Position numbers and translations under genes: made by a program. Under the pieces are notes generated by a model, which was not told the origin of the DNA, did not search any database, and worked only from the letters and a program-made list of their open reading frames with translations. Of a DNA stretch of 64,000 nt, positions 1,461 to 62,997 are shown piece after piece (within the stretch, counting starts at the first letter, position 1; every line of letters starts with the position of its first letter). The DNA comes from Takakia lepidozioides. Lineage: Eukaryota; Plantae; Bryophyta. The stretch covers positions 48,236,001 through 48,300,000 of the forward strand of contig CM060733.1 of NCBI GenBank assembly GCA_030704615.1. The letters are read 5' to 3'.

Positions 1461-4270
1461 TTGGTGGAGAGTAATGCTTCAGCCACGGTGATGCCAGCCA
1501 AGAAGGATGTCTATGGCAATTGGACGGAGAGACGTATGTGCGGTGATTATCGGCCTGTAATCGTCAGACCAAGTCCGATACGTATGCCATGCCCACACCG
1601 AAGGAGATCTTTGATGCCATTGGGCATGCCAAGGTCTTTAGCACTTTGGACTTGCGGTCCGGATATCACCAGTTGCCGATCAAGAAGGCGGACAAGCAGA
1701 AGACGACATTCTGGGGGATCAATGAGCACGGGAATGATTGCTTATATCAATGGCGATTCTTACCATTCGGGCTTAAGAACGCTCCTGCAGAGTTCCAGAG
1801 AGTCATGGACAGGATTCTAGCAGGGGTAGACTTTGCTCGTGCACATAGATGACATCATCATCTTTAGTGCTACGGTGGAGGAGCACGAGAGACACCTTCA
1901 GGTGGTGTTTGAGCGCTTGAGAGCGCACGGATTGAAATTACATCCGGGAAGTGCAAGTTCTTCCACAACCAGATTGAGTATCTGGGCCACATGATATATC
2001 CTGGAGGATTGGGGGTGCACCAGACTAAGGTAGAGGCCATCGCACAGATTCCATGTCCCACGGATGTGAGCCGAGTTCGAACTTTCATGGGGTTGGCAAA
2101 CTCCTATAGACGGTTTGTCAAGGGATTTAGTGTTATTGCAAAGGCTCTAACCAAGCTGACGAAGGTAGACCAGGAGTGGCAGTGGGAAGATGAGCAAGAG
2201 CGAGCTTTTCAGGAGCTCAAGGCGAGGTTGACCTCGGCGCTGATCTTGAGACGACCTATCAGGGGGCGTCCCTTTCAGGTGCATACAGATTGGAGCATGC
2301 TGGGGCTTGGAGCGGTTCTCACACATGTGATGAGGGAAGAGAGTTCGTAGTGGCTTATGCTAGCCGCTCGAACAACGCTGCAGAGTCTAAGTATAGCTCA
2401 TATGAGGGGGAGTGCTTAGCTGCAGTGTGGGCCGTGACACTCTTCAGGTGCTATCTATACGGCAATCTCTTCACCCTTATCATGGATCACCAGCAACTCA
2501 AGTGGTTGATGGAGTCAGACAAGCTTACGGGGAAGCTTGCACGGTGGGCACTTATACTCCAGGAGTATGACTTTCAGGTTGTGCATCGACCGGGTTTGGT
2601 CAATAGGGATGCGGATGGATTCAGTTGCAATCCATGCACGAGCCAGTAAGATGACACTGGAGCTCGGTGGCATGGTGAGACGGACGAGGAGATGGTGCCG
2701 GGATGGCATGCATCTGTCTTTTTGTGTATCTTGGCATCGGAAGGTCAGATTGGACCTACAACAGGGATGACTGTAGATGGAGTGTCTGAGGACCCTAAGG
2801 CTAGTGATGAGCCAGGCGGTGCCAGAGATATACATGAGGATTCAGTTGTGTTGGACTACCTCCGCACTGGAGACACGGCAGCTAGTGTGACTGCCAAGGA
2901 GAGGGATCGGATCCTGCAACGAGCCAAAAGGTTCAAGTGGGAGGGGATACACCTGCTTCGAGTGTGGGAGGATGGTCGGGTGAGGATCATGCCTCACCCA
3001 ACACAGCGTGCACGGTTAGTGCGGCATGCCCATGAGGAGTTGGGGCATTTTGGAGTGCGACGCACTCATAGTTTACTGCAGGGGCAGTATTGGGCGTGGT
3101 ATGCACACAGAGGTGCAACAGTTTGTGGCTAGGTGCATGGTGTGTGACAGGGTGCGTGCTTCATTCAACGCCCCTACACCACAGTTGCATCCATTACCCA
3201 TCATGGGATTGGGCTACAGGTGGAGTCTTGACTTCGCAGGGCTGTTGCCACTGACGATGCGCCACCACAGATATGTATTGATGATGGTGGAACACTTCTC
3301 CAAGTGGATTGAGTTGGTTCCATTGCCTGACAAGGCTAGTGAGGGGGCTGCGTATGCATTCCTGGATCGTGTGCTTAGCCGATTTGGTGCTCCAATTGAG
3401 GTACTCACGGACCAAGGGAGAGAGTTCTTGGGGGAGTTTCAGGCTTTGTATGATAAAGCCTTGATAGACCAGCGTACCACTTCTCGGGATCATCCTGAGA
3501 CCGATGGCTTGGCAGAGAGAGTGGTGCAGACGGTGAAGAGGGGTTTACACAAATATGGCTTGCAAAAGGGACACCTAGGAGATTGGGATCTTCAGCTACC
3601 TTGGTTAGCCATGGGCTACAGGTTCAGCAAGCAAGCATCACTTGCCTCCTTCTCACCATATTTCCTTCTCTTTGGCCGAGAGCCGGATTTGCATGCATCT
3701 ATTCGCAGGGAGGCTGCAGTAGTCCTCAACCTTGCTGATCCGGATGTGTGGACACAAGCATGTGCCCAGCGGGCAGAGTTGTTCAAGAGAGTCATGCCTA
3801 TGGCTTTTGAGAATCTTGCTATTGCCCAACACCGAGACACATTGAGGTATGTCACTATACGTGGAGGGGGATATCGGCCAGGTGTTCGGCGTTTCCACCC
3901 TGGGGACTATGTGTATCTGCAGCAGACAGCGCCTACAACCTTGGATGTCACAGCAGAACGTGTGATTCTAAGGGTCAGGGAGGTGTTACCTTCAGGAGTG
4001 TTGATTCTGGAGGGTCGAGATGGCATGGTATGGAAGGACCATGTGCGTAATTGTGCGCCATGTCACCTTCCACATGTGGATGTGAGGATAGATCCCAACC
4101 TTGCAGTGGTACCTGCAGGATTGCGTTGCATGCTATGTGGGCATGTTCGTGGTGCCGCCACTATGCTGGTGTGTGATCGATGCTCAAGAGGTTGATACAT
4201 GAGATGCTTGACACCACCTCTTGAGAGGGTTCCTGATAGAGATTGGTTATGTCCACACTGCTTGGGATAG
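1461..4270 (+). pseudogene. RT-RNase H-integrase-PHD region of pol, copy 1, with stops and frameshifts
   Basis: ORFs 1461-1820, 1589-1852, 1991-2350, 2290-2649, 2692-3132 and 3026-4195 carry consecutive Ty3 pol motifs; PHD CMLC..VCDRC..(W>stop)..C..WLCPHC ends at TAG 4268-4270. Confidence 0.93.
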
Positions 4271-4530
4271 TGGTAGTGGATATGACTAGTGGCAGCTCAC
4301 AAAACATGGGAGGCCAAGCTCATAGGAGTCAATACCCAAGATCTCAGGCTCAAGTTCACAGGTTGCAAGACGGCGACTAACGATGGGGCAACTCTTGTAC
4401 CCGGCCTCTTGATCTATCGAGTTTGAGTGTAGTAGGGACAGTGGTGGAGGATTTAATGAGGCTATGGCCACTATCACATCTTGTGGCTACCTGGACTTAG
4501 AGGAACCTAAGCGCCAGCTAGGGGGACGAT

Positions 4531-5430
4531 TGTGATGGACTAGTGGCTACACTAGTGGTGGCTAGTGGCAGCCTAGTGGTGGACTAGTGGCTGCACTAGT
4601 GGTGGCTAGTGGCAGCCTAGTGGTTGGACTAGTGGCTGCACTAGTGGTGGCTAGTGGCAGCCTAGTGGTGGACTAGTGGCTGCACTAGTGGTGACTAGTG
4701 GTTGTTTAGTGGCAGCCTAGTGGTGCACTAGTGGTGCACTAGTGATAGACCCTTGTTTGGTGTGCACATATGTTGTGTGGTTTTGGACAGCGATGTAGTT
4801 GTGTAGCGATATGTATGCGCACAACAGCTGTCAAGTTATTTTACCACTGGTGTGAAGTTAGCTAGGAAATAGCTAGCTTTTATATATTGACATTTGGGAT
4901 TGATCCAAGTATCAATCCAGGGGCCAATACATGTTTCAGCACCTGACGTTGTTATCTTCACGGCAGATCGCGGTGGGCTCATCTTTCTCGAGTTGAGCCT
5001 CACCACGTCTAGCTATGGCGCCGTAGTGTGGATTCCCCATGGCGTAGGATGCACTTGGCTCAACTTAATATATAAGTGATGTTTTCATGTGCAAGTGTGT
5101 GAGTTTGAGAGAGCTTGTATACTTGTATCATTCCTTTCCTTATCATTGTGATGGACTAATGGTAGCCTAGTGATGGACTAGTGGCTGCACTAGTGGTGGC
5201 TAGTAGCAGCCTAGTGGTTGGACTAGTGGCTGCACTAGTGGTGGCTAGTGGCAGCCTAGTGGTGGACTAGTGGCTGCATTAGTGGTGACTAGTGGTTGCA
5301 CTAGTGGTGACTAGTGGTTGTCTAGTGGCAGCCTAGTGGTGCACTAGTGATAGACTAGTGTTTGGTGTGCACATATGTTGTGTGGTTTGGACAGCGATGT
5401 AGTTGTGTAGCGATATGTATGCGCACGACA
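4531..5430 (+). repeat. Composite 3' terminus A1(4531-4826)-GC-B(4829-5145)-T-A2(5147-5430)
   Basis: A1 and A2 are direct repeats (TGTGATGGAC...GCAC(A/G)ACA) containing CTAGTGG arrays; B (317 bp, TGTCAAG...CTTATCA) matches 52047-52363 and 61651-61967. Confidence 0.93.
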
Positions 5431-19908: not shown

Positions 19909-22900
19909 AGTGTTGCGGTTGAGGAGCATGAGAGACACCTTCAGGTGGTTTTTTAGCGCTTGAGAGCGCACGGGTTGAAACTGCACCCCGGAAAGTGCAA
20001 GTTCTTCCATAATCAGATTGAGTATCTGGGCCACATGATATACCCTGGAGGATTGGGTGTTCAACAAACAAAGATGGAGGCCATTGCATGCATTCCACGC
20101 CCCATGGATGTGAGCAAAGTTCGTGTTTTCATGGGATTGGCAAACTACTATCGACAGTTTGTCAAGGGATTTAGTAGCATTGCAAAGGTTCTTACCAAGT
20201 TGACCAAGGTGGGTCAGGAGTGGCAATGGGAGGAGGAGCAGGAGAAAGTTTTTGAGGAACTCAAGGCTCGATTGACTTTTACACCTATTCTAAGGCGGCC
20301 TATTCGGGGGCGGTATTTCCAGCTACATACGGATTGGAGTATGCTGGGGATTGGAACAGTGCTCACACAGGTGGATGATAAGGGAAGAGAGTTCGTAGTG
20401 GTATATGATAGCCGCTCGAACAATGATGCCGAGGCGAAGTATAATTCCTATGAAGGGGAATGTCTAGCTGTAGTATGGGCAGTGGCACATTTTAGATGCT
20501 ACCTCTATGGCAATCTCTTCACCCTTGTCACGGATCACCAACCATTGAAGTGGTTGATGGAGTCAGACAAGCTTACATGGAAGCTTGCACGGTGGGCACT
20601 TATGCTTCAAGAGTACGACTTCCAAGTGGTGCATCGAGCCGGAATAGTCAACCGGGATGCGGATGGATTGAGTCGCAATCCATGCACAAGTGAGCTTGAT
20701 GATACAGGAGCTCGTTGGCATGGTGAGACGGACGAGGAGATGGTGCCAGGATAGCACGCATCTGCCTTTTTTATGCATTCTAGCAATGGGAGCTCAAGCT
20801 CGTCCATCCCATGTGATTGGTCATAGAGATAGTGTGTATGCCGATCAAGAGATCAGTAAGGAGCTTGGTGATGCTCAGGATGTACATGAAGATGCAGCAG
20901 TGTTGGCCTACCTTCGTACTGGAGAGACAGCAGCCAGTGTGACTACTAAGGAGAGAGATCGGATCCTACAACGAGCCAAGAGGTTCAAGTGGGAGGGGAC
21001 TCACCTACTCCGAGTATGGGAGGATGGACGAGTGAGGATTGTGCCTCATCCAACACAGCGAGCGCGATTGGTACGCCATGCCCATGAGGAGTTGGGACAT
21101 TTCGGGGTGCGACGCACTCATAGTTTGCTACAAGGACAGTATTGGTGGCGGGGCATGCACACGGATGTGCAACAGTTAGTGGCAAGGCGCATGGTGTGTG
21201 ATAGAGTGCGGGCTTCTTTCAACGCCCCTACTCCACAATTGCATCATTTACCCATTATGGGTTTAGGCTATCGTTGGAGTCTTGACTTCGCAGGCCCATT
21301 GCCACTGACGATTTGCCATAACAAGTATGTGCTGGTGATGGTAGAACATTTCTCCAAATGGATTGAACTGGTGGCATTGCCTGACAAGGCAAGTGAGGGG
21401 GCTACGTATGCATTCTTAGATCGAGTGCTTAGCCAATTTGGTGCTCCAGCCGAGGTACTCACGGACCAGGGGAGATCATCCCGAGGCTGATGGCTTGGCC
21501 GAGAGGGTTGTGCAAACAGTCAAACGAGGCTTGCCCAAGTATGGCTTGCAGAAGGGACACTTGGGAGATTGGGACCTTCAGCTACATTGGTTGGCCATGG
21601 GCTACAGGTTTAACAAGCAAGCATCACTTGCCTCGTTCTCGCCTTATTTCCTTCTCTTTGGCCGAGAGCCAAATTTGTCTGCATCTATTCGTAGGGAGAC
21701 TACAACAGTCCTCAACCTTGATGATCCGGATGTGTGGACACAAGCATATGCCCAGCGGGCAGAGTTGTTCAAGAGAGTCATGCCTATGGCTTTTGAGAAC
21801 CTTGCTATTGCCCAACACCGAAACACATTGCGGTACGCCACTATACGTGGAGGGGGATATCGGCCAGGTGTTCGGCATTTCCATCCTGGGGACTATGTGT
21901 ATCTGCAGCAGACAACGCCTACAACCTTGGATGTCACAGCAGGTCGTGTGATTCTAAGGGTCCGGGAGATGTTGCCTTCAGGAGTGTTGATTCTGGAGGG
22001 TCGAGATGGCATGGTATGGAAGGACCATGTGCGCAATTGTGCACCATGTCACCTTCTACATGTGGATGGGAGGATAGATCCCAACCTTGCAGTGGTACCT
22101 GTAGGGTTGCGTTGCATGCTGGTGGTGCCGCGACCATGTTGGTGTGTGACAAATGGAGCGACCGCCAAGGTGGCGGTCGCTTCTACGAGGTCTTCCCTGC
22201 GCATGGAGCGAGGAATGAGGCGGGGGGGGGGCATATAAGCTCCGAGTCATTCTTCATTCACTTCCATTACTAGCAGTTTTTGTTTTTACAAAATGCAGCG
22301 ACCGCCATTTCTGGCGATCATTGTAATGGTTATTTTTTAAAATGCAGCAACCACCACACATGGGATGCTTGACACCGCCACTTGAGGAGGTTTCTAGTGG
22401 AGAATGGTTGTGTCCACGATGCCTTGGATAGAGGTAGTGGGGCATGACAGTGGTGAGGTTGACAAGTGATCCAAGGTCTAGCTAACGGGAGTTCAATGCC
22501 ATGGACACCCAATTGGAGCCATGGATTGCAGGAAGACGAGTAACGATGGGGCTACTTTTGTACCCGACCTCTTGATCTATTGCCTTCAGATACTGGGACT
22601 TGGGCGATTGATGACCAAGCGATGATCTTATTGGGATAGATATTTGTCAATTATCCGGTGTTAGAGGGACCTAATCACCAGCTAGGGGGGCGATTGTGGT
22701 ATAGTTTTCTAGGATTGTATGCTTAGATTGCGTGGTGGACAACGATGTATGTTGTGGCACGATGCTTAGGTGCACGACAGCTGTCATGGTTTTAGTCATG
22801 GTTATCTAGAATTACCTACTTCTAGTTAATTAGGATATTTTAGATATTTATATTTATATTTTGTGTGTTGGGACTTCATTTGGTCTCACATGCCAAGTGA

Positions 22901-23219
22901 GGTATCGAGCCTCACTTGGGACATGGGGATAGGTTTTCCCCTTGTGAGGATGGAGGAGGTTCATCTTCTTGTAGTTGAGCCTCCATGAGCCTCTCTCACC
23001 TCCATAGCTCTAGGTATTGAGAGAGAGTGTGGTGAGGGCTTTGTAGGGTGGATTCCCTTAGCAAGGGTGCCTTTGGCTTAACTTAGTTTATGTGATTGAG
23101 TGGATTCATGAATGGAGGGTTTCTATTATGTTCACTTCCATTATCATTGTGGTATAGCTTTCTAGGATTGCGTGGTGGATAACGATGTATGTTGTGGCAC
23201 GATGCTTAGGTGCACAACA
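19909..23219 (+). mobile_element. 5'-truncated Ty3/Gypsy copy 2, a divergent subfamily of the same family
   Basis: RT C-terminus, RNase H, integrase (internal deletion at ~21470) and PHD interrupted by a ~200-bp insert (22152-22355); PPT GCTAGGGGGGCGAT; terminus A1(22695-22779)-GC-B(22782-23146)-T-A2(23148-23219). Confidence 0.93.
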
Positions 23220-24325
23220 GGGTGCATTGCAGCATCGTTGTCATTAAATTCATATAAGTCATGTGGAGGATTGTCAACATCATCGGCGTTGACGCGTCAG
23301 CGTCACATCCGACGTCAGCGACGAACGTGCGTCACGTCACGTCCTAAACCGACGTTACTGTACATAAATATGTTTATTTTTTTACTTTACTATTGACTAT
23401 TTACTATGAGAACCGACGTGGCAACCGATGTGGCCTCATACGTGGACTTCATTAATTATCTATAAAATTCATATATTATGATTTATATTGTGAATCATGC
23501 GACCGTCAGCAAAGGTTGGTCGGACAAATTTTTATTTTTTTTAAATAAGTGCGACCACCAGAAGGGGGTGGTCGCAAATTTTTTCTTATTTTTTAAATGG
23601 GTCCGACCACCAGCAGGTCGTGGTCCCAGCATTTTCAATTTTTTTAATAGGTGCGACCACAAGCACAGGGTGGTCGCACATTTTTTCTTTTTTTAAAATT
23701 GGGTGTGACCACCAGCAGGTGTTGGTCGCAATTAAAAAAAAAAAAAAAAAAGTGCGACCACCAGCAGAGGATGGTCGCACATTTTTAATTAATTTTTAAA
23801 TGGGTGAGACCACCAGCAGGGGATGGTCGCACATTTTTAATTATTTTTTAAATGGGTGCGACCACCAGCCGGTGGTGGTCGCAGACTTTTTCTTTTTTGT
23901 TATTAGGTGCGACCGCTTATGGGGGGTCGCACATTTTCTTTTTGTTATTAGGTACGACCGCTCCCAGGACACGTGGCGAGGCGTGAATGGGCAGCAGAGG
24001 CGGTCGCACGTCAGGCCTCTCCAGGCAGTATATAAGGGCCTACCCCTCATTCCCAACCCACTTTTTTCCCTCTCTGTGAGTGCGGTTCTGGGGCTTCTTG
24101 GAGTTTGAACTTCGGTGGCCAGGACTGAGCATGGGAGGGGGGAGAAAGTGGATTTGTGTGGGGGAAGAGTTTTTGCCTTTTTTTCCTGGAACTGCGGGAG
24201 AGTTTGCTTTGGGTACTATACCAATAGAGGGTGAGGAAATTGGTCTGCTAGTATATAAGGTTATCAATAGTTTGGGTTTAGTTTTCCGTTATGAAGCCGC
24301 GTATATTCTGCAGAGTACTTTCATC

Positions 24326-49423: not shown

Positions 49424-52400
49424 ATGGCAATGTTCCACTCCGAGTTGAACGTCGACCTTTCCTTGGTCAGGCCCGATCCCATGGCTAATCAGAGCTACCA
49501 TGACATGGAACTGCGAAATTATGATTCTCCAGAAAATTTTGAAATTGTATGCATGAATGTACAAAATCCGCATACTACCAATAGTTCGACTAAAGGCAAG
49601 GAACAGCTGAGAGATGAGGATTACGGACATATGCTTGCAAGCGAGCAAGAACCCAACATTAACGAATTAATACCTCAGCAAAGTCAATTGTGTTATGATA
49701 CTCAAGGTGGTGCACTTGCCATCGAGAAGTGGTGTCCCATTTGTGGAGAAAGTGATTCAAAATGTATTTGCTGGATGCCTATGCATGCCGGTGAATCTAG
49801 CACTTCATCCTACTTGAATGATCAGAGCGATGCAGGTAGGTTGTCAACACCTTGTGACATATTACACCCTCCGCGGAATCGAGGTGAGTTTGGCAAACAT
49901 TCAACAGCTGCTTCCCCTTCCAACGTGTCTCGCAATGCTATGCCTAATCATCTCTCTCAAGATGGAGAAGGTAGAGGGCAGCAATTTATGGACTTTGATG
50001 AGAGAGTCCAGTATGATCCTATTAATCAGCAAAGAGTTGACCAGGTAAATGACTCTAATCCACTAGTCTAGAGAATGATTGTCTTTAGATCTACAATTCT
50101 CAACTGAACATCTCACCATTCAAGTCTAATTCCATGTCTCACCGTTAGGTCTCACCACTTGAGTCTTATCTAATGACTAATGAGATGGATCTGATCAAGT
50201 ATAACTACACAAAAGATAATTTTTCTCTTTTTCTTTTTTATTGCGAAACTAGAGGAGACTAAAAATGGTATCTGATTTTGAGATGGTGATTCTAGATAGT
50301 CTTTTTAAAGTGCATTAAGAAATAATACATGTACTATGGGCGCACATTGTCCGATTTAATTATGGAATTATATCCTTATGCACAACAACATTGCTTACTT
50401 TTGAAATGGATGCAAATTAACTTGTGTGTTCAGATATTCTTGACATGCACCTTTGGGTAATTATGCAGACTTATTGGGACACTATACAAAAGCAAAAAGC
50501 AGAATGGGAAACCGCAAAACAGAAAGCGATGATTGTGGCACATCCTTCATATCCAGAACTATTGGCGGCCCACGCTGCTTGCCTTTGTGTTGGTACATCT
50601 GTGGCTCAACTCCAAAATCTCGATGAGCAACTAATGCAGGCTCCGATTGTAAGCCAGAAATATTCAGTTTTGGACCTTGATCAGTTTGAGATCAGTCCAG
50701 ATGAGAAGGCGGAGCTTGATCTTTTCATGGTGAGAGACCACTGAACACAAGAAGATTGGATTAATCATTATAGTGCTATTGGTACATATATTAGAGTAAC
50801 CAAGTCTCCTCTTATTTGTATTGCCCAGGAAAAACAGACCAAACTTATGTTCACGATCTATTCCAAAGTTGTGCAAAGATTAATTTGACTTAGGCTCCTA
50901 TTTAGTCTAGACTCACTCTTATTAGTTTGAACATAATTGTCTAGGCACTTCATTTCAGATCCTTGTCTTTTGTTTTTGTCTTTAGATCCCGCAAATGGTA
51001 GGTTGATTTCTAAAGAACTGGCCTTTTTGGACATTGTACTAGGTCCAATACATTACGCTCCTTGTTGCCTTCAAGGAGCAGTTAGAGCAACATGTTTACA
51101 GCGATGTGACTCAAGCTATGGCATCCTGCTGGGATGTGGAGCAGGAACTTTACAAACTGACAGGTAACGTAAGGGTTTCTACATATCATTTATAATCATA
51201 TATATACTGCCCAAAATGAGAGCTCTAGAATACTTGGAAAACTTGGATGCTAGACCTTGGTGTGCTGTGTTAGTATTGCTAGAGGAAGTGACATATAAAA
51301 ATAGTGCGCCCCAACATAGAAAACTCTCCAGTATAGTAGAGGTGTATTTTCTCAAAAGTGCGTTAATCATGCACACTTAACCTAGCAAGTATAGATCCAT
51401 AGGGTACTAGTTCTAGTTAAACCGGGGTACCGAGGTACCTCCCGGAGCCATTGTCTGGTCTGAGTACAACCATCAGGGGTTATACCTGTAGGACCATTCT
51501 CAAAAGACACCTTTTAGAGGCAATTGATGCATGTTGGCCTATCCATACTAACCTGACACAAGGAATCATGAAAGACAATGGATAGATGTAGATGTCGTAT
51601 TAGTCAGATTAATTGCTAATGACTTGAGCTCCCATTTTGCTGTACCTCTGTAGGATATTAGATCCAACTGCGGAGTTGAATTGGAAGGGCCTATATAAGT
51701 TAGTAAAAAAATGTTATTTTGGGAAGTGTGTCGTGCGCATACATATCGCTACACAACTACATCGCTGTCCAAAATCACACAACACATGTGCACACCAAAC
51801 ACTAGTCTATCACTAGTCCACCACTAGTGCTCCACTAGGCTGCCACTAGACAATCACTAGTCACCACTAGTGCAACCACTAGTCCACCACTAGTCTGCTA
51901 CTAGCCACCACTAGTCTGCCACTAGCCACCACTAGTGCAGCCACTAGTCCAACCACTAGGCTGCTACTAGCCACCACTAGGCTGCCACTAGCCACCACTA
52001 GTGGCTGTCACTAGTCCATCACTAGGCTGCCACTAGTCCATCACAATGATAAGGAAATGAATGATACAAGCATACAAGTTCTCTCAAACTCACACACTTG
52101 CACATGAAAACATCACTCATATATTAAGTCGAGCCAAGTGCACCCCACGCCATGGGAAATCCATACTATGGCGCCATAGCTAGACGCAAAGAGGCTCAAC
52201 TCAAGAAAGATGAGCCCACCGCGATCTGCCGTGAAGATAACAACGTCAGGTGCCCAAACATGTATCGGCCCCTGGATTGACACTTGGGTCAATCCCAAAT
52301 GTCAATATATAAAAGCTAGCTATTTCCTAGCTAACTTCACACTAGTGGTAAAATAACTTGACAGCTGTCGTGCACATACATATCGCTACACAACTACATC

Positions 52401-55400
52401 GTTGTCCAAAATCACACAACACATGTGCACACCAAACACTAGTCTATCACTAGTCTACCACTAGTGCAACCACTAGTCCATCACTAGGCTGCCACTAGCC
52501 ACCACTAGTGCAGCCACTAGTCCAACCACTAGTCTGCCACTAGCCACCATTAGTGCAGCCACTAGTCCACCACTAGTCTGCCACTAGCCACCACTAGTGC
52601 AGCCTCTAGTCCAACCACTAGGCTGCCACTATCCACCACTAGTGGCAGCCACTAGTCCATCACTAGGCTGCCACTAGTCCATCACAATCGTCCCCCTAGC
52701 TGGCGCTTAGGTCCCTCCAAGTCCAGGTAGCCACAAGGTGATAGTGGCCATAGCCTCACTAAGTCCACCACTGTCCCTACTACACTCAAACTCAATAGAT
52801 CAAGAGGCCAGGTACAAGAGTTGCCCCATCGTTAGTCGCCGTCTTACAACCTGTGAACTTCAGCCTGAGATCTCGGGTATTGACTCCTATGAGCTTGGCC
52901 TCCCATGTCTTGTTAGCTGCCACTAATCATATCCACTGTCACTATCCCAAGCAGTATGGACATAACCAATCTTCATCAGGAACCCTCTCAAGAGGTGGTG
53001 TCAAGCATCCCATGTGCCAACCTCTTGAGCATCGATCACACACCAGCATAGTGGCGGCACCACGAGCATGCCCACATAGCATGCAACGCAACCCTGCAAA
53101 TACCACTGCAAGGGTGGGATCTATCCTCCCATCCACATGTGGAAGGTGACATGGCGCACAATTACGCACATGGTCCTTCCATACTATACCATCTCGACCC
53201 TCCAGAATCAACACTCCTGAAGGCAACACCTCCCTGACCCTTAGAATCACACGTCTTGCTGTGACATCCAAGGTCGTGGGCGCTATCTGCTTCACATACA
53301 CACAGTCCCCAGGGTGGAAATGCCGAACACCTGGCCGATATCATACCTCAATGTGTCTTGGTGTTGGGCAATAGCAAAATTCTCAAAAGCCATAAGCATG
53401 ACTCTCTTGAACAACTCTGCCCGATGGGCACATGCTTGTGTCCACACATCCGGATCATCAAGGTTGAGGACTACTGCAGACTCCGTGCGAATAGACGCAG
53501 ACAAATCTGGCTCTCGGCCAAAGAGAATGAAGTATGGTGAGAAGGAGGCAAGTGATGCTTGCTTGCTAAACCTGTAGCCCATGGCTAGCCAAGGTACCTG
53601 AAGAACCCAATCTCCTAGGTGTCCCTTTTGCAAGCCATACTTGCATAAACCCCTCTTTACCGTCTGCACCACTCTTTCTACCAAGCCATCGCCCTCAGGA
53701 TGATCCCGAAAAGTGGTACGGTGGTCTATCAAGGCTTTATCACACAAAGCCTGAAACTCCCCCAAGAACTCTCTCCATTGGTCCATGAGTACCTCAACTG
53801 GAGCACCGAATCGGCTACCTAGCACACGATCAAGAATGCATACGCAGCCCCCTCACTAGCCTTGTCAGGCAATGGAACCAACTCAATCCACTTGGAGAAG
53901 TGCTCCACCATCACTAATACATATCTGTGGTGACGCATCGTCAATGGCAACGGCCCTGCGAAGTCAAGACTCCACATGTAGCCCAATCCCATGATGGGTA
54001 AATGATGCAACTGTGGTGTAGGGGCGTTGAATGAAGCACACACCCTGTCACACACCATGCACCTAGCCACGAACTATTGCACCTCTGTGTGCATACCACG
54101 CCACAATACTGCCCCTGCAGTAAACTATGAGTGCGTCGCACTCCAAAATGCCCCACTCCTCATGGGCATGCCGCACTAACCGTGCACGCTTGTGTGTTGG
54201 GTGAGGCACGATCCTCACCCGACCATCCTCCCACACTCGAAGCAGGTGTATCCCCTCCCACTTGAACCTCTTGGCTCGTTGCAAGATTTGATCCCTGTCC
54301 TTGGCAATCACACTAGTGCCGTGTCTCAAGTGCGGAGGTAGTCCAATACAACCGAATCCTCATATATATCTCTGGCACCACCTGGCTCATCACTAGCCTT
54401 AGGGTCCTCAGACACTCCGTCTACAGTCATCCTGTTGTAGGTCCAACCTGACCTCCCGATGCCAAGATACACAAAAAGACAGATGCATGTCATTCCGGCA
54501 CCATCTCCTCGTCCGTCTCACCATGCCACCGAATTCCAATGTCATCCTGCTGGCTCGTGCATGGATTGCGACTCAATCCATCCGCATCCCTATTGACCAA
54601 ACCCGGTCGATGCACAACCTGAACATGTCTCTCATGCTCCTCCACCGTAGCATGAGAGGCAAAGCAATTCCTGTAAGCCTCAGGAACTGCCGTATACGTC
54701 GTCTCTCTCCTCTAGTGACAATGGGTCCAATGTCAGGCTCTCAATTGCCCTTCGTAACTGCAACCTTAAGTCCAGCAGACTTAGAGGTAGAGGACGCGTC
54801 CCGTGGTTGCTATGCCGCAACCTCTTGAGCAGTACTCCCTGCCTGATCAGTCTATGACAAGGCCTCATCCTGCCCCATCATCTCATCCTTGAGGACCTCC
54901 TCAACCCGAGAAGAATCCCCAACCTCATCCATCACAGCCGTCTTGGCTGCCAACTCCCTCTGAACCTCGAGCACCTCCCACGTGTGCCATGGATGTCTAC
55001 ACCCTGTGGTCCTCACCGGCTCGCCCCCACTCACTGTCTGTACCGTCTTGGTAGGCAGAGAGACCGTCAAGGGAAGTGCACTCCGCACTCTACGTTGCTC
55101 AGCCATAGCCAAGCTGATAATCCAAGTCAAGCAATTGAGATCCATCGATTGCCCCAACACCTGACGACGTGATGCCTTAGAAAGAAAAGGCACCGCCGTG
55201 GTCCCAGTGGAAAAACCCATAGCCCGCTCATCGCTCGTCGCATTAGGTTCCACTAACTGCTGCAACTGAGCATCCAACAGGAGGCCAGGTCCACTATCCC
55301 GGAAAGCATACGATCCTGGGAAGTTGAGAGTGTAGGTAGTGCTGCTCGTGGTTGATCCACCTTGTTGACCATTGCCAAAGAGAAACGGTCATCACGTCTC

Positions 55401-58400
55401 AAACGCTGAGACTGCCTCCCTGTGTCCAAAATGCTATCCACTGTGAGGTGTGCTAGCCGTTGCACCCCATCAAATGCACGCTTAAGCAGTGCGGGTAGCA
55501 TCAAGTTAGTCCACCATAACCGTGGACGATGAGCCCGAGACCCCACTGCAGCTGCATCCAGCAACACTGCTGATCCAAGCCACGACCGGACTTGATGCAC
55601 ACTGGCCATCACCCTGGCCCGAGAATCGCCCATCAGTGGCACATTCTCCAAGATGTATGCTGGAGATACAGCCTGATGAAGCTGTAAGTGGCGCAAAACC
55701 CGCACCATCTCCCAAAACAGTCCCGACCTCGAGTCTCGTAATCCATTGTTATGCCCGGTTGATAAATGCCCTTGGCAGGGCCAACCTGCCACTACCAGAT
55801 CAATGGAGCCAACCCTCTCCAAATCCTGCGCCCCCAGCAACAAAATGTCTGTTGGCAAGGCCTGCTGATACCCACGAACTGTAGACACCGGCAACAACTC
55901 AGGGTACTGCTGCACCAACTCAGCAACATGGCGTAGGGAGACGTGTCGTGCAATCTCATCTTTCTCTACATATAAGTACCGCCGTACTCGTACACCTACC
56001 TGTCCGGTGCTGATCCCGCCAAACAAGTCCAGAAGGCAAATGCCTTCATCCGGACACTGCCACACGATCGGTGTGGTGTCCAATGGAGACAACTGAGGTG
56101 GTCCTGGTGCAATCCCCGCACCATCCTCCTCTCCTGACGGTACAAAAGCCTCTACCCAGGCTTGTTGCACCCGTCGATCAGCAACCCGCTGCAAATCCTT
56201 GCTTGAGCCCCACAATGGAGTGTGAGCAACCATGGCAGGCAACTCCGCCATACCATACATGTCATCCTGCTCTTCCGGAGGTGACACATCTTCTGAATGA
56301 GTGTTGTCATCCAACAACTCTCCAGGCCAAGTCACTGCAGTTGTGAATGCTGCCAGTGTCGGCATCTTGCCTCGCTGGGCAACCGCAACTCCTTCTATGA
56401 ACGTCAGAGGGAGCTGCACACGCCGGGCCTCCCCTGACTGCCATCCAGGCCTATAGGAAGCTGACTCCTCCCAATCCAGGGTGAAGCCCATGGGGTACAA
56501 CACTGCCCCACCAACAAGGACATCGTACGAGACCGTGTCTGTCACAATGGCCTTGGCTCTCGTCACTGAGCCATCTGTAGGATGATCCGACTGTAATCTG
56601 ATAGCCAACTCACGCCATGTCATGCCCCAAACCTGCTCTGATCCTCCCAGCAATGTCTGTATCTAGAAAGGGCACGGCTCCATATCCGCCTCCGTGAGGC
56701 CCAAGCCTGCAATAGCAGCTCTGCCCAACATCAAATGGGCTGAGCTCCCAAGTCCAACAAGACTCGCAGTGGCCGGAACCTCTTGCCTGCCGGTCCACTC
56801 AAACAGAAAATATCATCCTGGTTGTCTAACATGACAACTCCAGGTGTCATCATGGTGCGCTCAATGGTTGACCTAGCTGGCAGCTCCATCAACCTGGCAG
56901 CTGCAGCTTGCCATGGCGCCGCCATGGCAGTCTTGACCCTCACATCTGAGGATCCCTCTGGCACTACACCTCCCACTATCTCCACAGAAGATGAAGTAAC
57001 CTCCCCACTCTCACATAGTGTAGCTGCCAGCCTGAAGACCTCAGCTGGTCTTACCCCCGGTATCACAATCATGGTAGCCGAGAACAATGGAGCCTGGCAC
57101 ACAGCTGTGGCCGCCCCCAGCAGCACACTAGCTGCCGTAGCCTTGGCAATACTAGGTAGTGGTGTTGCCCGTGTAGCTCTTCCCAATGGCATAGTAACCT
57201 CCGCCTCGGTAACAGTCGGGCGAGAACTAAGTGCCATGGAAGGCGTCGATATTGTCTCCGCCAATGTGAATGACTGAGGAAGCCTGGCCTGACGGCTTGC
57301 CTCCCCACGTTGTGGATCCATCCACCTCCGCACCTTGTGGCTCAGGAACTCGTGCTGCTCCTTGAGTCACTGCCGCAGCTGACTCCACTTGCACTAGTGG
57401 TAGTCCTGCCCCGCACATAGTGGTAGTGGTAGTGCTACCCAGCACTAGTGGTAGTGGTGCCCCACCCACAGTGGTAGTGGTAGTGGCACCCCTCACCAGT
57501 GGTAGTGGCGCCACCATAGTGGTAGTGGTAGTGCACCCCTCACTAGTGGTATTGTTGCCTCGCACATGAATCCCATTCATCCCATGTCTCCTCCCTCAGG
57601 AGCAGGAGGTGGACCACCATCCGGCTTTGGAGCCGGTACCACCTGCGGTGTGAGCTGTGGCCCATGGCAAGCGATGCTCTGCTCTACTGCTGAAGCCGGT
57701 TGGCCATGCCTTGGTCACCACCCTGACCTCCGCGTCCTTGGCCATGTTGAGCTTGCCCTTGGCCTAAATACACCTCGTGCCTGGCCACCTCGTCCTCTCT
57801 GGGTTGCTCCACCTCGCCCCCGGCCACGACTGTTCCCTTGAATGGGGCGCAACTTAGGATACAAACCATAGCAACTGGAGCTTCTCATGCCCGTTACTTG
57901 TCCACAATGCCCACACTGCAACTGTCTGCAGGCTGTAGCCGTAGGGGTGCCCAAACCGATTGCCCTCCCTCTGGGCAATCCTTCTTGACATGGGGTTCCC
58001 CCACATGTCCAGCCATACCACTCCGCCCCGTTGTTGCGCCAGCAAAATGAAGGGAAGACCCCTCCTAGCCATATGACAGGTCCTCTATGTCTTTCCCTGG
58101 GCTTACCTGAGCTCCACTTCTTCGCATATGAGTACGTTGAGGGCGGTGGTAAGTGGCCTGGCTTAGGAGTACCCCTACCTCGTTGTGCATCCTTAGCAAA
58201 TACCTACCATGACACTCGTTCCTCCACCATGTTGAAGCCCATCCGCTCTGCCAGCAAAAAACACATTTGCCTGCTAAGGTGGATTGGGCCACTTGTAGGA
58301 GAGTTGCCCCATCCCGCCACCCCCCCCCTCTTCTCCTCAGCCTCCTTGTCCAATTTCCGTACCAGAAGAACTGAGAACTGCCCAAGCCTCCGTAACCACT

Positions 58401-61400
58401 TGGGTTACATTTATCAAGCGCCTCATGTGAGTGAATGCGGAGCAGCACTACCACTAGTGCAGGTGGAGTCTGCTGCAGCCGTGACTCGAGGAGCAGCACG
58501 AGACCTCGCCAACACAAATTACGTACGACAACGGCCATTGGGAGCCACGTCACTTGGGATAATCTGCCGAAGTGCAAGCAAGGAGCGGGAGCCCGCTTAG
58601 GGAATTCCAAAAAGGCCTTGATGTGAAATGCATCGCCAATCACTTGATCACCCCCCTAAAAGTGCGCAATTCAACTAGGCTTCCGTTGGAACTCTTGCAA
58701 ACTCCTCAACTTCTCTATCCTCACCCCTTGGTAATTCCTTCCTCACTCTTCGAAGAACTCCACAACAGGGTTGAAAACAGGCACCGCCACTGGTGCTGGT
58801 GCAGCAGTAGCTTGGGTGGACGTCGTAGTTGCTGTACCACTAGTCCCACTACTGCTCGTGGAAGCTGCTGTTGCTGGTGCAGCTGCCGGTGTGGCTGCTG
58901 CCCTTGTGCCTCTAGTGATGGAGACATAGTCGGGTGACGAGTACATCCTCCACTCCTCGATCTCAACATCGTGCCCCCGCCTAAACTCATGGTAATCATC
59001 CATGGGCGGCCCCTCAAGGTGCTAAAACAACCCCTTCCATGCCATGAAAGGCGTAAACAGTTGTGGATTGCGCATTTGCTGCAAGTCACACTAACTATCA
59101 AACTCTTGGATAAAATCATCCAACTCAATGGTGCCCACCGCCCCAGAGTACCTACGTAGCCCCTTGGTGGCTCCATACATCTCCTCCATTGTGTCCCACA
59201 ACAATGGCAAGGAAACAACTTGCACCGCCGGTGTGAGTCCTCCTGATTCACAATCCAAATCAGAACCTTCCGTAGAAGACACAGGAGGTGAAGGTGGCCT
59301 AAACCACACACACCCCGTCTGTTATACACCCGCTAGTATGCTAGTGCTCGTACCAGCACTTTCCCAAGCAACTAGTGGCACCTCCGTGTTGACAAACTGA
59401 CACTCAACCGGTCATGAACATGTCTCGAACCCCCTCTCTACAAGGTATCCGGGTAGAGAACTTGATGCGGCTTATGGTTTGGAATACTAGGTTCCTAACA
59501 TAGTCTGCACCTGCACCTGCATCCACCGCAGGCACTCCCATGGTTGACTGGTCATCACCTCCAACCTCACCACAGGAGAAACAAAGATGGTCTGACTGGT
59601 CATCAACCCAGCCTCACCATCGACAACATGCTCTAGGGTTGGATCGGCGATCAAGCCCGAGTAAACCACCTATAAAATCAAGCGCTCACACAAAACTAGC
59701 ATGGCACACAATCAAGCATGCAGGTGTGGAAGGGATCCAAACACAAGAATGAAAACAACAACTCCCCCACACCAAAAATCTCTCCACAGTGTCGCTCCTG
59801 CAACCCAGCCCAAACCCGGACTGACTCTTGCCTCCACCTACGGAAAGGTCTCGGCCTACAGAGAAGGTGGAAAGCTACGAGGAAGGGAAGCTAAAGCAAT
59901 GCCTATCCCAATCACGCTCTCATCCCAACACCCTCTTTTTTTCCTCTCTTCTCTCACTTGCATGACCATGAGAGCATCCTGTAGACACTCCTCAAACCGC
60001 CCTCCACGAGCCTATGAAACTTGGCCTCCAAGGCCCCATACAAGCCTCCATAGGGTCCGCTAGTGCCTCCTTACGTCCACCAGCCATTCCTCCGAATGGA
60101 ACCACCTCAGGAAACCACACCATTCGCTGAAGGTTCAAAAATGGAGCAAATAGAGGTACATATAGGCCCCAACAACATTCTGTCCAAAGGAATTACCTGC
60201 AGGCTGGTCTCCCCCATAGTTAAGAATTGGGCTGAAAACCAGAAAAGATTACCTACATGGGAGTAATCCCCTTTGTTAAAACGCAACAGGGAGGCAATTC
60301 CGACTTTTCTGCCAGCCAGCTCAAAACCGTTGTTCTACAGATCCCTGCCTCCCCATCAAGGTCCAACGAAACGAATGAAAAAAAGTTTTTTTTTTTTTTT
60401 TTTTTAAATTTCCACTCTGCCTGTTCGCGGCCTTTCTTGGCTCCAACCACCACTACTCCTCACGGCCCGCCCTAGGCGCTCGTTGGCCACGGGCTGCCTA
60501 GTGATACCCCGTAGTACCACTCCCACGAGCCTTCACGGCCCGCCATCCCCACGATCCGGTCACCGTGCCCACCCGTTGTGTCCGCACCACGACTTCCAAC
60601 GGTCACGGTCAACGGTCACAGTCAACCATCACGACCTGGGCTCGTGGTATCTCGTGATACCGCCCCAACGGCCCATCACGACCACTATTCCCTGCATTCC
60701 CTAGAACTCCCAACGAGTTCCCATGAGTTCCCGAGGCGTTCCCGGACGTTCCCGAGCTCTTCTCGAGCTGGGGTTTGCTCCAGCACCTGCTGCCAACGAG
60801 CTATGGCTTCTGCGGAGCCATCAGCCCCGTTGCCTTGCACTCCTGAGCTCTCACGGCCCACCAGAAGTGCCTCCAACTCAACACGCATTCTATATCCTGC
60901 CCAACAAGCTCCATTTTCTTCATGAAGCTCACAAAAACAAATATGAAAATACACACCTTTACAAACTTGGTGCACTTGCACTTCTCATGCATCTCCCTTG
61001 GCTCTAGGGCGCCTCGTTGCTGCCCTTCCAGCCCCGCTCTTGCCACTCCAAGAGCCCTTACACTGCTGAGTTTCAGATTGAAACTACAACTCAGCACATG
61101 CTTCACAAGTGCACTGATTTGCACACAAGAGGGACCAGCCCCCTCTCTTCACTCATACCTTTTGAGCTTGGAGCTGAGGCTCCCAACGGGCTGCGATGCA
61201 TCCCCTTGCAGCTCCACCATTCGGCTGCTCCTCATCTACCCGCAACAACTAGTTTCGGGCAGAAATACCTGGAGCTGATCATATCATCTCCAACCTGCAA
61301 CATGCTAGTTTCCCATGCGCAGCCCTGCAGCTCCTTTACTCGGCCTGCAGCTGAAGAAGACAACCACCAGTTCGCCCACTCGTGGCCAACATATCCTCCG

Positions 61401-62997
61401 CTTCACACTAGAAGCCCAAACTTGGTTGTCATAGCGTTGAGCTATGCAACGCCGCTCTTCAACATAGGCTACCCGCTTCTCTATCCATGGCAAACCTGCA
61501 ACCTGTTCGCCTTTGCACTCTATCCGCTTTGGATAGGCTCATGCACGGATCCCTGCACTCTAGGCTGAACCGTTTTTCATGATCTGAAAACACAAGTGCT
61601 ACAACTAACTCGAACTTGGCACTCATAGACTTGAGCTGATCTTTCTCGAGTGATAAGGAAATGAATGATATAAGCATACAAGCTCTCTCAAACTCACACA
61701 CTTGCACATGAAAACATCACTCATATATTAAGTCGAGCCAAGTGCACCCCACGCCATGGGGAATCCACACTACGGCGCCATAGCTAGACGCGGAGAGGCT
61801 CAACTCGAGAAAGATGAGCCCACCGCGATCTGCCGTGAAGATAACAACGCCAGGTACCCAAACATGTATTGGCCCCTGGAATGACACTTGGGTCAATCCC
61901 AAATGTCAATATATAAAAACTAGCTATTTCCTAGCTAACTTCACACTAGTGGTAAAATAACTTGACAAGTGCACTATGCACATGAAACATAGGGAATGGT
62001 AGATCAACTTATCTGTGCAATATTATTGGTTAATGATACTTAGCTGCGCTTATTGCAACTACTCACATTTACTTTCCATTTGAAACAATGAGTTCAGGAA
62101 CATCCCCAGTTTATGGCATAGGAACAGCTACGATGTCTGATGACGATGATGAAGAGGAATACGAAGGTGATGGTAGTGCATATGACCCAAACTTGGACCC
62201 CCACCCAAACTTGGAATCCCCTGAATATGATGGGAGTTTGGGGCCAATTGTACCTACCGAGGAAGAGCGATGTACACTCCGCGAGTGCATACGAAAGGAG
62301 CTAAAATCGGAGCTCAAGCAGGCAAACATCATCAGGACTACCTTTAGTGATGATGTGTTCTTCCATATTTGTCTAAATTTTGCTAGAGCTTTAGGCCTGC
62401 ATGTTTTTAAACACTTGATGAAATTTGTAACTACATCTAGATCAGATGCATACATAAAGGAAGATACCCATCACTCCAAACGAAAATACTTATATACATT
62501 TCTTCCACAGAAGACGTGCCACTCGAGGTGATTGTAATACATGTTTCAGATATCTCAGGGATACCGGAGAATAATTGGGGATGTTCGAGAGGAGATATTG
62601 CGCAAGCGTCGGGCTGGGAAGTTGCCCCAAGGCACCACTGCAGTACTGAAGGCCTGGTGGTATGAGCACCGAGAATGGCCTTATCCAACGGTACACGCAC
62701 GTATCCAACAGCTAATGTTACACACCTTGTAACTTTGTATTGCATTTACAGTGTATGTTACCATCGTAGGTAGGTAGAACTTCAAAACGCTATGAAGAAG
62801 TTGACATTGTCTTGTTGAATTGCTTGATATCTTACTCTCTAATTATAGTGCGCGTACCTAAGCTGCAGGAGGAGCAGAAAGAAGAACTTGTCAAGGAGAC
62901 TGGACTGGAACACAAGCAAGTCAACAACTGGTTTATCAACCAGCGGAAACGCAATTGGGAGCGTTTGATGAATATGGACCCGCCATCCTCTTCATAA
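49424..62997 (+). CDS. Class II KNOX homeobox protein, copy 3 (most canonical). Exons 49424-50044, 50469-50729, 51043-51163, 62098-62321, 62559-62690, 62869-62997; a 10.2-kb retroelement lies in an intron
   Basis: [38 protein letters not shown]|[24 protein letters not shown]|[44 protein letters not shown]|[17 protein letters not shown]; a small exon near 50.2 kb cannot be excluded. Confidence 0.9.
51729..52686 (-). repeat. 3' terminus A1(52686-52366)-GC-B(52363-52047)-T-A2(52045-51729)
   Basis: Reverse complement of the 4531-5430 arrangement; PPT at 52687-52700. Confidence 0.93.
52942..54620 (-). pseudogene. Integrase plus C-terminal PHD finger of copy 3
   Basis: HAHEE.GH/CMVC zinc domain, [14 protein letters not shown]; [28 protein letters not shown]; frameshifted. 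Confidence 0.92.
55100..56045 (-). pseudogene. DNMT3-like cytosine-5 DNA methyltransferase domain in pol of copy 3
   Basis: Motif [71 protein letters not shown]; one frameshift near 55320. Confidence 0.92.
56500..56780 (-). pseudogene. Retropepsin-type aspartic protease
   Basis: [10 protein letters not shown] (D-S/T-G-A-like active site) and downstream YDVLVG; runs into the MTase ORF. Confidence 0.7.
57300..59340 (-). pseudogene. gag of copy 3 (degenerate)
   Basis: [18 protein letters not shown] capsid-like N-terminus, zinc knuckle [13 protein letters not shown] (~57960-58010), a second CGHC knuckle, and an RG-rich segment. Confidence 0.7.
61651..61967 (-). repeat. 5' terminal repeat of copy 3 (B unit only, 317 bp)
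   Basis: About 13 differences from 52047-52363; TG...CA ends; TATA-like TATATA; no A unit upstream, with the TSD directly adjacent. Confidence 0.93.

What the first reader, a model, noticed from the sequence alone, without database searches (positions are those of the whole stretch)
55100..56045. Retrotransposon polyprotein carries a DNMT3-like cytosine methyltransferase
Seen: C5-MTase motifs I, II, IV (catalytic PC in GWPCQG), VI (ENV), VIII, IX and X lie in order between protease and RT, sharing an ORF with the protease C-terminal half. The same domain is at 1-860 in copy 1, so it is a family feature rather than a one-off capture. [10 protein letters not shown] and [15 protein letters not shown] resemble DNMT3 (RARYFWGNL, ERVFGF..RQRLLGRSW). 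Established (recalled, not checked here): DNMT-bearing retrotransposons were reported in dinoflagellates and the charophyte Klebsormidium (de Mendoza et al. 2018). Inference: a land-plant representative that could methylate its own cDNA in the particle or its insertion site.
Basis: partly seen in the sequence, partly recalled or inferred. Interest (0 to 1): 0.88.

Follow-up and report, generated by a model that had tools for sequence, protein, structure and literature searches.

The report
Plant retrotransposon carrying its own methyltransferase
This is a dead copy of an abundant jumping gene, with close relatives in liverworts and peat mosses, that encodes a DNMT3-like DNA methyltransferase ahead of a fixed stop codon, so the enzyme is likely made in bulk with the particle protein and likely methylates the element's own new DNA copies; my searches found the kind in print only from algae.

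Summary
Confirmed. 56038-55101 (minus) is a DNMT3-like C5 methyltransferase (Pfam 3e-10; PDB sequence and fold searches rank DNMT3A/B first) in a decayed 10.2-kb Gypsy element: Gag-protease-DNMT-RT-RNaseH-integrase-PHD. This copy is dead (frame break, RT deleted). Close relatives occur in Marchantia, Calypogeia and Sphagnum; the domain is under purifying selection between families. The kind is known (KnitGypsy-Dnmt3, Klebsormidium), and this scan noted it before in two moss genomes.

Added here: (1) A fixed stop separates DNMT from RT (51 of 51 aligned moss-type loci; window TAG-CAA-CCA, a TMV-type readthrough context), so the methyltransferase likely belongs to the abundant Gag frame rather than Pol. 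(2) The ends are split direct repeats (A1..B1-A2-B2) with TG..CA termini, 4-bp target duplications and an internal palindrome, GACAGCTGTC, kept in three families. (3) A large sister group, with members named in Scenedesmus and Cymbomonas, has the DNMT between RNase H and integrase, mostly with the PHD, suggesting a capture older than Klebsormidium.

Host unidentified. Activity, readthrough and substrate untested.

The parts
51729..61967 (-). Whole element, copy 3 (10.2 kb), ends TGTC...GACA
61968..61971 (-). 4-bp target-site duplication CACT, 5' side
51725..51728 (-). 4-bp target-site duplication CACT, 3' side
61651..61967 (-). Repeat A1 (317 nt; 95.9% to A2, K2P 0.043)
57745..59189 (-). Gag with zinc knuckles, broken into several frames
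   Evidence: tblastn with the Marchantia protein P0009
56400..56836 (-). Aspartic protease (LLDLGAQP), broken by a frameshift and a stop
   Evidence: the relative P0163 hits Asp_protease_2
55101..56038 (-). DNMT3-like C5 cytosine methyltransferase domain, motifs I-X; five-codon gap near 56003 and frame break near 55328 in this copy
54804..54812 (-). Family-wide stop TAG followed by CAA CCA (readthrough-type context) that ends the Gag-protease-DNMT frame
   Evidence: motif from PMC3159437
54430..54800 (-). Remnants of the RT start and RNase H end around a deletion of about 1.27 kb (54657/54623)
53215..54302 (-). DDE integrase (H2C2 finger and rve core), frameshifted
52951..53085 (-). PHD finger at the integrase C-terminus
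   Evidence: Pfam PHD 2e-10
52366..52688 (-). Repeat B1 (contains short ACTAGT-rich tandem units)
52360..52369 (.). B1|A2 junction, palindrome GACAGCTGTC
52047..52363 (-). Repeat A2
51729..52047 (-). Repeat B2, ends in GACA
1..5430 (+). Copy 1 (cut by the window edge): DNMT 9-858, stop at 1145, RT-RNase H 1211-2650, integrase, PHD, B1-A2-B2 4530-5430
19909..23220 (+). Copy 2, a diverged 5'-truncated subfamily (RT end, RNase H, integrase, B1-A2-B2; junction palindrome at 22776-22785); no DNMT in view

Best explanation
This is a dead copy of a Gypsy retrotransposon family that encodes a DNMT3-like cytosine methyltransferase at the end of its Gag-protease frame, and in working copies the enzyme is likely made at Gag level, packed into the particle and likely methylates the new cDNA. 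Shown: domain identity, domain order, intact catalytic motifs, purifying selection between families, the fixed stop before RT, split direct repeats, TG..CA ends, 4-bp target duplications, the junction palindrome and the PHD finger. Inferred: (a) RT-RNase H-integrase-PHD is made by occasional readthrough of the stop, so methyltransferase outnumbers RT and integrase; (b) the protease frees the domain inside the particle, where the cDNA is made; (c) the cDNA arrives methylated, looks like old host DNA and is quickly silenced, which limits harm; (d) the PHD likely reads an H3 tail unmethylated at K4 and steers integration away from active promoters; (e) the B1|A2 junction holds both integrase attachment ends back to back (CA, two bases, TG) and likely templates both ends of the cDNA. 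Confidence: identity about 0.95, readthrough about 0.8, cDNA as main substrate about 0.55.
For: Profile of 43 relatives against PDB: DNMT3A 4e-19, DRM-type plant enzymes 2e-10 to 2e-7, DNMT2 1e-6, bacterial enzymes 7e-5 or weaker. An AlphaFold model of relative P0037 (pLDDT 68) matches DNMT3A/B at E 5e-11, TM about 0.52. The catalytic Cys is kept in 77 of 78 loci covering it. Copy 3 against 79 moss-type loci: pN/pS 0.34 for DNMT, 0.22 for integrase (34 loci), 0.49 for protease (58 loci). Identity to Marchantia P0009: DNMT 69-70%, protease half 54%, linker 38%, tail 41%. Shared versus singleton N/S ratio 0.51 for DNMT (p 2.6e-4), 0.46 for RT (p 2.4e-4), 0.67 for the linker (p 0.2). Stop in 51 of 51 aligned loci (34 TAG, 17 TAA), followed by CAA in 50; no other codon column exceeds 32% stops. 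RT continues in the same frame in 39 of 47 moss-type loci measured and in both window copies. Natural frames from Marchantia, Calypogeia and unnamed sources end 68-111 residues after motif X. UAG-CAR-YYA is the TMV-type readthrough motif (PMC3159437, passages). The dinoflagellate DIRS Dnmt3 methylates CG de novo, and cDNA methylation was proposed there (PMC5890265, Discussion). PHD nearest structures include KDM5A/B PHD1, ATXR5, PHF21A, UHRF1 and BAZ2A; that these read unmodified H3 tails is recalled.
Against: No activity, protein or expression data. Between window copies 1 and 3 the DNMT decays nearly neutrally (pN/pS 0.72, p 0.14). None of 21 long loci examined has an open frame of 500 codons or more across the DNMT. 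The moss-type context is TAG CAA CCC, one base off the TMV consensus. Some relatives (P0191, P0240, the Klebsormidium model P0030) have DNMT and RT in one frame, and 82 of 85 distant polyprotein representatives place the DNMT after RNase H or directly before integrase, so Gag-level dosage is not needed for the domain to be kept. The shared/singleton test is blurred by recurrent deamination; its DNMT reference had 3 stops, the integrase test failed (0.72, reference with 10 stops) and the protease gave 0.94. One of six search patterns contained PCQ, which favours loci that keep it.
Confidence: 0.6

Rival explanations
1. The methyltransferase is active but works in the nucleus on chromosomal DNA (older copies, flanks of new insertions, or competing elements) as a self-limiting or chromatin-shaping factor, not on cDNA in the particle.
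For: Gag-level output would exceed what one cDNA needs (inference). A DNMT3 beside an H3K4me0-type reader recalls DNMT3A with its ADD domain (recalled). PMC5890265 lists slowing of transposition as an option.
Against: The PHD is on the integrase, beyond the stop, not on the methyltransferase. C-to-T decay of the element by context is no different from other repeats in the window (CG 0.08-0.10 against 0.06-0.11), a weak test.
Confidence: 0.22
2. The methyltransferase serves the unusual replication: it marks the internal B1|A2 junction or the ends so that the integrase processes the termini but spares the internal palindrome.
For: Split repeats and the DNMT occur together here, in moss-type loci and, by the figure legend, in Klebsormidium. 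The junction context GCACGACAGCTGTCA is kept in three families whose repeats otherwise do not align. DIRS/PAT elements, with similar repeats, also carry a methyltransferase (PMC4157794).
Against: No direct evidence. Ngaro elements have split repeats without a methyltransferase. The repeat layout of the algal sister group was not seen.
Confidence: 0.1
3. The domain is kept for a non-DNA or non-catalytic role (RNA methylation, or nucleic-acid binding in the particle).
For: The LINE-borne DNMT of Symbiodinium did not methylate DNA in yeast. Many algal relatives have EC instead of PC in motif IV (39 against 16 in the RNase H-DNMT-integrase group).
Against: The window and bryophyte members keep PC, ENV and motifs VIII-X, and resemble DNMT3 far more than DNMT2.
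Confidence: 0.06
4. A neutral captured fragment of a host gene that rides along.
For: Near-neutral decay between window copies 1 and 3.
Against: Conserved more than the protease between families, fixed position in 80 loci, and DNMT and RT trees agree over 48 elements.
Confidence: 0.02

Closest known systems
KnitGypsy-Dnmt3 of Klebsormidium nitens (de Mendoza et al. 2018, PMC5890265; abstract, section 9, Discussion, passages and supplement text search seen; figures not seen)
   Same: Gypsy domains, a DNMT3-like domain upstream of RT, DIRS-like repeats by the Fig. 4 legend, purifying selection; one clade with the window in both DNMT (0.978) and RT-RNase H (0.992) trees.
   Different: Found here in liverworts, Sphagnum and an unidentified host. 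A fixed stop puts the DNMT in the Gag frame, whereas the paper places it in the Pol ORF. The paper's text does not mention a PHD finger, target duplications or the junction palindrome. It calls the capture specific to the K. nitens lineage, which the chlorophyte relatives question.
SymbioDIRS-Dnmt3 and PAT/Ngaro tyrosine-recombinase elements (PMC5890265; PMC4157794, passages)
   Same: A1-B1-A2-B2 split direct repeats (PAT, Ngaro); a methyltransferase beside RT (DIRS, PAT).
   Different: This element has a DDE integrase, TG..CA ends and 4-bp target duplications; no tyrosine recombinase was found.
Chlamydomonas Gypsy-7a_cRei (bioRxiv 10.1101/2022.06.16.496473, passages)
   Same: Gypsy polyprotein with a PHD finger and a bias for intergenic insertion.
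   Different: No methyltransferase named in the passages read; repeat layout not compared.
EpiLTRs and DAM-LTRs (bioRxiv 10.64898/2026.05.21.726589, passages)
   Same: Gypsy-like elements combining methyltransferases with a chromatin reader.
   Different: Those DNMTs are sister to DNMT4, come with DAM and a chromodomain, and are stated to be distinct from streptophyte Gypsy-DNMT3.
TMV-type (type I) stop-codon readthrough (Firth et al. 2011, PMC3159437, passages)
   Same: UAG-CAR-YYA context in window copy 3; the same Gag/Pol dosage logic as MuLV.
   Different: Here the stop follows protease and methyltransferase, not Gag; the moss-type family has CAA CCC; readthrough is untested.

Membership tests
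C5 cytosine methyltransferase, DNMT3 type | Motifs I, IV (PC), VI (ENV), VIII, IX, X in canonical, unpermuted order | tested here: met
C5 cytosine methyltransferase, DNMT3 type | Closer to DNMT3 than to DRM, DNMT2, DNMT1 or bacterial enzymes | tested here: met
   profile and fold rankings; no tree with host DNMT3 genes was built
C5 cytosine methyltransferase, DNMT3 type | De novo methylation of DNA | not testable with these tools
   needs an assay; this copy is broken
Ty3/Gypsy | Order protease-RT-RNase H-integrase, with DDE integrase | tested here: met
Ty3/Gypsy | TG..CA termini and target-site duplication | tested here: met
   CACT in copy 3; 4-bp duplications in 5 of 5 independent complete moss-type insertions, one with a mismatch
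Ty3/Gypsy | Two complete terminal LTRs with primer-binding site and polypurine tract | tested here: not met
   the 5' end has only A, and B lies twice at the 3' end; no clear primer site seen after A1 by eye
KnitGypsy-Dnmt3 kind | DNMT3-like domain upstream of RT in a Gypsy element | tested here: met
KnitGypsy-Dnmt3 kind | DIRS-like repeat layout | tested here: met
   A1..B1-A2-B2 here; for Klebsormidium only the legend was seen
KnitGypsy-Dnmt3 kind | Common descent of DNMT and RT with the Klebsormidium element | tested here: met
   (FastTree; the window's RT row came from copy 2, its DNMT row from copy 3)
KnitGypsy-Dnmt3 kind | Purifying selection on the DNMT | tested here: met
   between families; near neutral between the two dead window copies
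KnitGypsy-Dnmt3 kind | DNMT inside one continuous Pol ORF | tested here: not met
   fixed stop before RT; hence filed as a variant
DIRS/PAT/Ngaro | Tyrosine recombinase | tested here: not met
   rve integrase, no recombinase family in Pfam scans
DIRS/PAT/Ngaro | Split direct repeats | tested here: met
Chromovirus clades (Tcn1, Chlamyvir) | Chromodomain at the integrase C-terminus | tested here: not met
   PHD instead
Chromovirus clades (Tcn1, Chlamyvir) | RT phylogeny against reference clades | not tested
   no reference set held

The most novel reading that the evidence does not exclude
One Gypsy lineage has carried a working de novo DNMT3 and a histone-reading PHD finger since before chlorophytes and streptophytes split. 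Its land-plant branch moved the enzyme into the Gag frame ahead of a leaky stop, so particles are loaded with methyltransferase and insert pre-methylated DNA, using a DDE integrase on PAT-like split repeats whose palindromic junction supplies both ends. It would be an overlooked source of de novo methylation in bryophytes, present in the model Marchantia.
Probability: 0.35. Interest if true: 0.82.

Novelty: new variant of a known kind. Interest (0 to 1): 0.62.

Why it matters
Methylation is the host's weapon against transposons, and why some transposons carry the weapon is an open question (PMC5890265). The known cases are in hard-to-handle algae. Annotated copies in Marchantia polymorpha (for example Mp_4g09160 and Mp_8g17980) make the question testable in a model land plant. 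The stop codon gives a dosage clue to mechanism. The split-repeat layout would likely be missed by finders that require two TG..CA LTRs flanked by a target duplication, as used for REXdb, which may explain why the family is overlooked (inference). Counts of plant DNMT genes by Pfam hits can be inflated by these copies.

Tried and rejected
No whole genome is held for the window, so copy number and intact copies in the host could not be searched. Host: not identified; the window shares only element DNA with the 80 moss-type loci and its flanks are richer in GC (0.43 against 0.30-0.35). No RNA holder was listed; two runs guessed to be RNA gave 3 and 0 contigs on the domain, which is no evidence either way. 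A stem-loop downstream of the stop folds at z -2.4 in copy 3 and L001 but -0.5 in copy 1, and 30 aligned sequences gave no convincing covariation (4 of 26 pairs with a double change, positive evidence lacking between families): not claimed. Codon counts for copy 1 were spoiled by frameshifts and replaced. A viral origin: 4 weak loci in viral contigs (E 2e-7 to 1e-4), rejected as close relatives. A symmetrical circle with two equal junctions cut at random would also give A-B-A..B insertions; none of 7 loci with A1 in view showed that, so a free choice of cut is disfavoured. Methylation-context decay did not separate the element from other repeats. No tRNA genes in the window. Two papers recalled as relevant (Gao et al. 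2003 on gag-pol recoding; Iyer et al. 2011 on methylation systems) are not held and were not read; the second is cited by de Mendoza et al. among earlier reports of DNMTs linked to RT and may cover algal cases.
Full report
Observation. On the minus strand, the frame 56662-55253 encodes half a retroelement protease, a linker and C5-methyltransferase motifs I-VIII; motifs IX and X follow in another frame after a break near 55328. Pfam DNA_methylase scores 40.4 bits, E 3.2e-10. All 24 PDB hits of the domain are DNMT3A, B or C. A profile of 43 relatives ranks DNMT3A at 4e-19, DRM-type enzymes at 2e-10 to 2e-7, DNMT2 at 1e-6 and bacterial enzymes at 7e-5 or weaker. A model of relative P0037 (mean pLDDT 68, last 58 residues unreliable) matches DNMT3A/B folds first.

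The element. The domain lies in a 10.2-kb element, 61967-51729, with Gag, zinc knuckles, protease, DNMT, remnants of RT and RNase H, a DDE integrase and a C-terminal PHD finger. This copy is dead: several stops and frameshifts, a five-codon gap after motif I, and about 1.27 kb of RT-RNase H missing relative to copy 1. Copy 1 (1-5430) is 87-91% identical and also decayed; copy 2 (19909-23220) is a truncated, diverged subfamily. One DNA run of the coded organism laid 63,253 contigs on the element, so the family is abundant, though that is no copy number. A1 and A2 differ by 0.043.

Ends. The element lacks two complete LTRs. It reads A1..coding..B1-A2-B2, the split direct repeats of PAT and Ngaro elements. 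Yet it begins TGTC, ends GACA and is flanked by CACT on both sides, the marks of a DDE integrase. Of 21 long related loci self-compared, 6 show both repeat pairs (5 independent insertions), and all 5 have 4-bp target duplications, one with a mismatch. The B1|A2 junction is the palindrome GACAGCTGTC: exact in copies 2 and 3, its only two occurrences in 64 kb, and in 3 of 10 moss-type junctions, the only three occurrences in 687 kb of loci; the other 7 differ by one to three letters. The moss-type A and B repeats otherwise show no significant match to the window. A staggered cut after each CA would leave CA-3' ends with two-base 5' overhangs, the form of processed retroviral ends (inference from established integrase chemistry). 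So the junction likely encodes both attachment sites. How the cDNA ends are made is open; all 7 loci with A1 in view have the same order, which disfavours random cutting of a two-junction circle.

A fixed stop. DNMT and RT are in frame but separated by a stop in 51 of 51 moss-type loci that align across the site (not de-duplicated; 34 TAG, 17 TAA), followed by CAA in 50, while decay gives at most 32% stops at any other codon column. Copy 3 has TAG CAA CCA at 54812-54804, and copy 1 has the TAG at 1145. The 40 best-supported variant rows from related contigs list no change at this stop, while two nearby stops of copy 3 are read otherwise in nearly all of them (62 rows were not shown). Natural frames from Marchantia, Calypogeia and unnamed sources end 68-111 residues after motif X. 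UAG-CAR-YYA is the TMV-type readthrough motif (PMC3159437). I infer that Gag-protease-DNMT is the main product and that RT-integrase needs readthrough. Against generality: P0191, P0240 and the Klebsormidium gene model run DNMT into RT without a stop.

Selection. Against moss-type loci, copy 3 gives pN/pS 0.34 for DNMT, 0.22 for integrase and 0.49 for protease. Identity to Marchantia P0009 is 69-70% in the DNMT against 38% in the linker and 41% in the tail. Among 55 distinct moss-type copies, shared variants are poorer in amino-acid changes than singletons (ratio 0.51, p 2.6e-4; RT 0.46; linker 0.67, not significant; protease 0.94; integrase 0.72 with a faulty reference). Between the two dead window copies the ratio is 0.72 (p 0.14), as expected from decay after insertion.

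Distribution. Named close relatives are in Marchantia polymorpha, M. paleacea, Calypogeia fissa, three Sphagnum species and Klebsormidium nitens. In a 44-row tree the window falls in a clade of 25 with all the named bryophyte sequences (100/99), outside the Marchantia-Calypogeia-Sphagnum subgroup; the host is therefore likely a land plant but unidentified. Of 80 metagenome loci, 49 show RT downstream and 27 reach the PHD; most others end at a contig edge. A profile search of 1.84 billion representatives gave 388 hits at E 1e-30 or better. Of the best 150, 85 carry RT, RNase H or integrase; in 82 the DNMT follows RNase H or directly precedes integrase, and in 3 it precedes RT. Of 23 long ones scanned, 20 have the DNMT between RNase H and integrase and a PHD. 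Of 20 clusters looked up, two name an alga: Scenedesmus and Cymbomonas. Over 48 elements, DNMT and RT-RNase H trees agree (patristic rho 0.65; 0 of 999 permutations reached it; 9 of 15 and 10 of 20 supported splits shared), and the group with DNMT before RT, which includes the window, Marchantia, moss and Klebsormidium, is one clade in both. Long end branches inflate that correlation, and no host DNMT3 or outgroup RT was included, so a single capture is suggested, not proved.

How it likely works. The main product is Gag-protease-DNMT; protease cleavage would leave many methyltransferase molecules in the particle, where RT makes the cDNA. Methylated cDNA would look like old host DNA and be silenced on arrival. 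The PHD has Gly two residues before the zinc-binding His, where H3K4me3 readers have a cage Trp (recalled), and is nearest to KDM5 PHD1, ATXR5, PHF21A and UHRF1, so it would likely steer integrase to H3K4-unmethylated chromatin. Rivals are action on chromosomal DNA (0.22), protection of the internal junction (0.10), a non-DNA role (0.06) and a neutral passenger (0.02).

What is known. De Mendoza et al. 2018 described KnitGypsy-Dnmt3 in Klebsormidium, with DIRS-like repeats and Ka/Ks under 0.2, as an acquisition in that lineage; Marchantia, Sphagnum and PHD did not appear in the supplement text searched, nor PHD in the main text. Later papers speak of streptophyte Gypsy-DNMT3 without naming land plants in the passages read. 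Nine full-text searches listed no paper on a land-plant member, the stop or the junction; most listed papers were seen only as listings, subscription journals are not covered, and trees in figures or unseen supplements, above all those of PMC12344493 and the 2026 preprint, may already include bryophyte or algal copies. This scan noted the same kind of element in two other moss genomes; a search of its notes for split repeats with readthrough gave nothing.

Verdict. A real feature and a new variant of a known kind: the land-plant branch of DNMT3-bearing Gypsy elements, with a mechanistic clue (the stop) and an unusual end structure. Interest 0.62.

Noticed in passing
window 19909-23220 (+): A diverged subfamily copy (dS 0.65-0.98 to copies 1 and 3, dN 0.05-0.09) with different A and B repeats but the identical junction GCACGACAGCTGTCA; its PHD is interrupted by extra sequence. 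Its 5' half is missing, so it is unknown whether it carried the methyltransferase.
   Followed up: partly
L015 14709-17294; L024 1-2016: A second RNase H-integrase(-PHD) family in moss-type loci; L015 shows a B repeat pair and the junction CATGACAGTTGTCATG, a near-palindrome.
   Followed up: partly
proteins P0227-P0366: Among the 150 best representatives, 34 read RT-RNase H-DNMT-integrase-PHD; named members are Scenedesmus sp. PABB004 pol and Cymbomonas CYMTET_40515; two also carry a G-patch; motif IV is often WEC instead of WPC.
   Followed up: partly
tree: Marchantia elements group with Sphagnum elements (99/94) rather than with the other liverwort, Calypogeia, which hints at old paralogous lineages or horizontal transfer.
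   Followed up: no
window 13960-15874 and 23498-25561: A 2-kb duplicated unit (87%) that begins with arrays of about 50-nt repeats holding a GCGACCACC..GGTGGTCGC hairpin between T-rich tracts; a kinase fragment lies at 25245-25796 (Pkinase 3.8e-6).
   Followed up: no
window 27307-28164 (-): Uninterrupted 285-codon frame with a RING-H2-like finger.
   Followed up: no
window 8675-11671, 39506-42455, 62506-63009: A 3-kb non-coding-looking repeat family (69-79% identity) of unknown type.
   Followed up: no
window 57390-57560 (-): ACTAGT/ACCACT-rich tandem units inside the gag-protease spacer resemble the units of repeat B.
   Followed up: no
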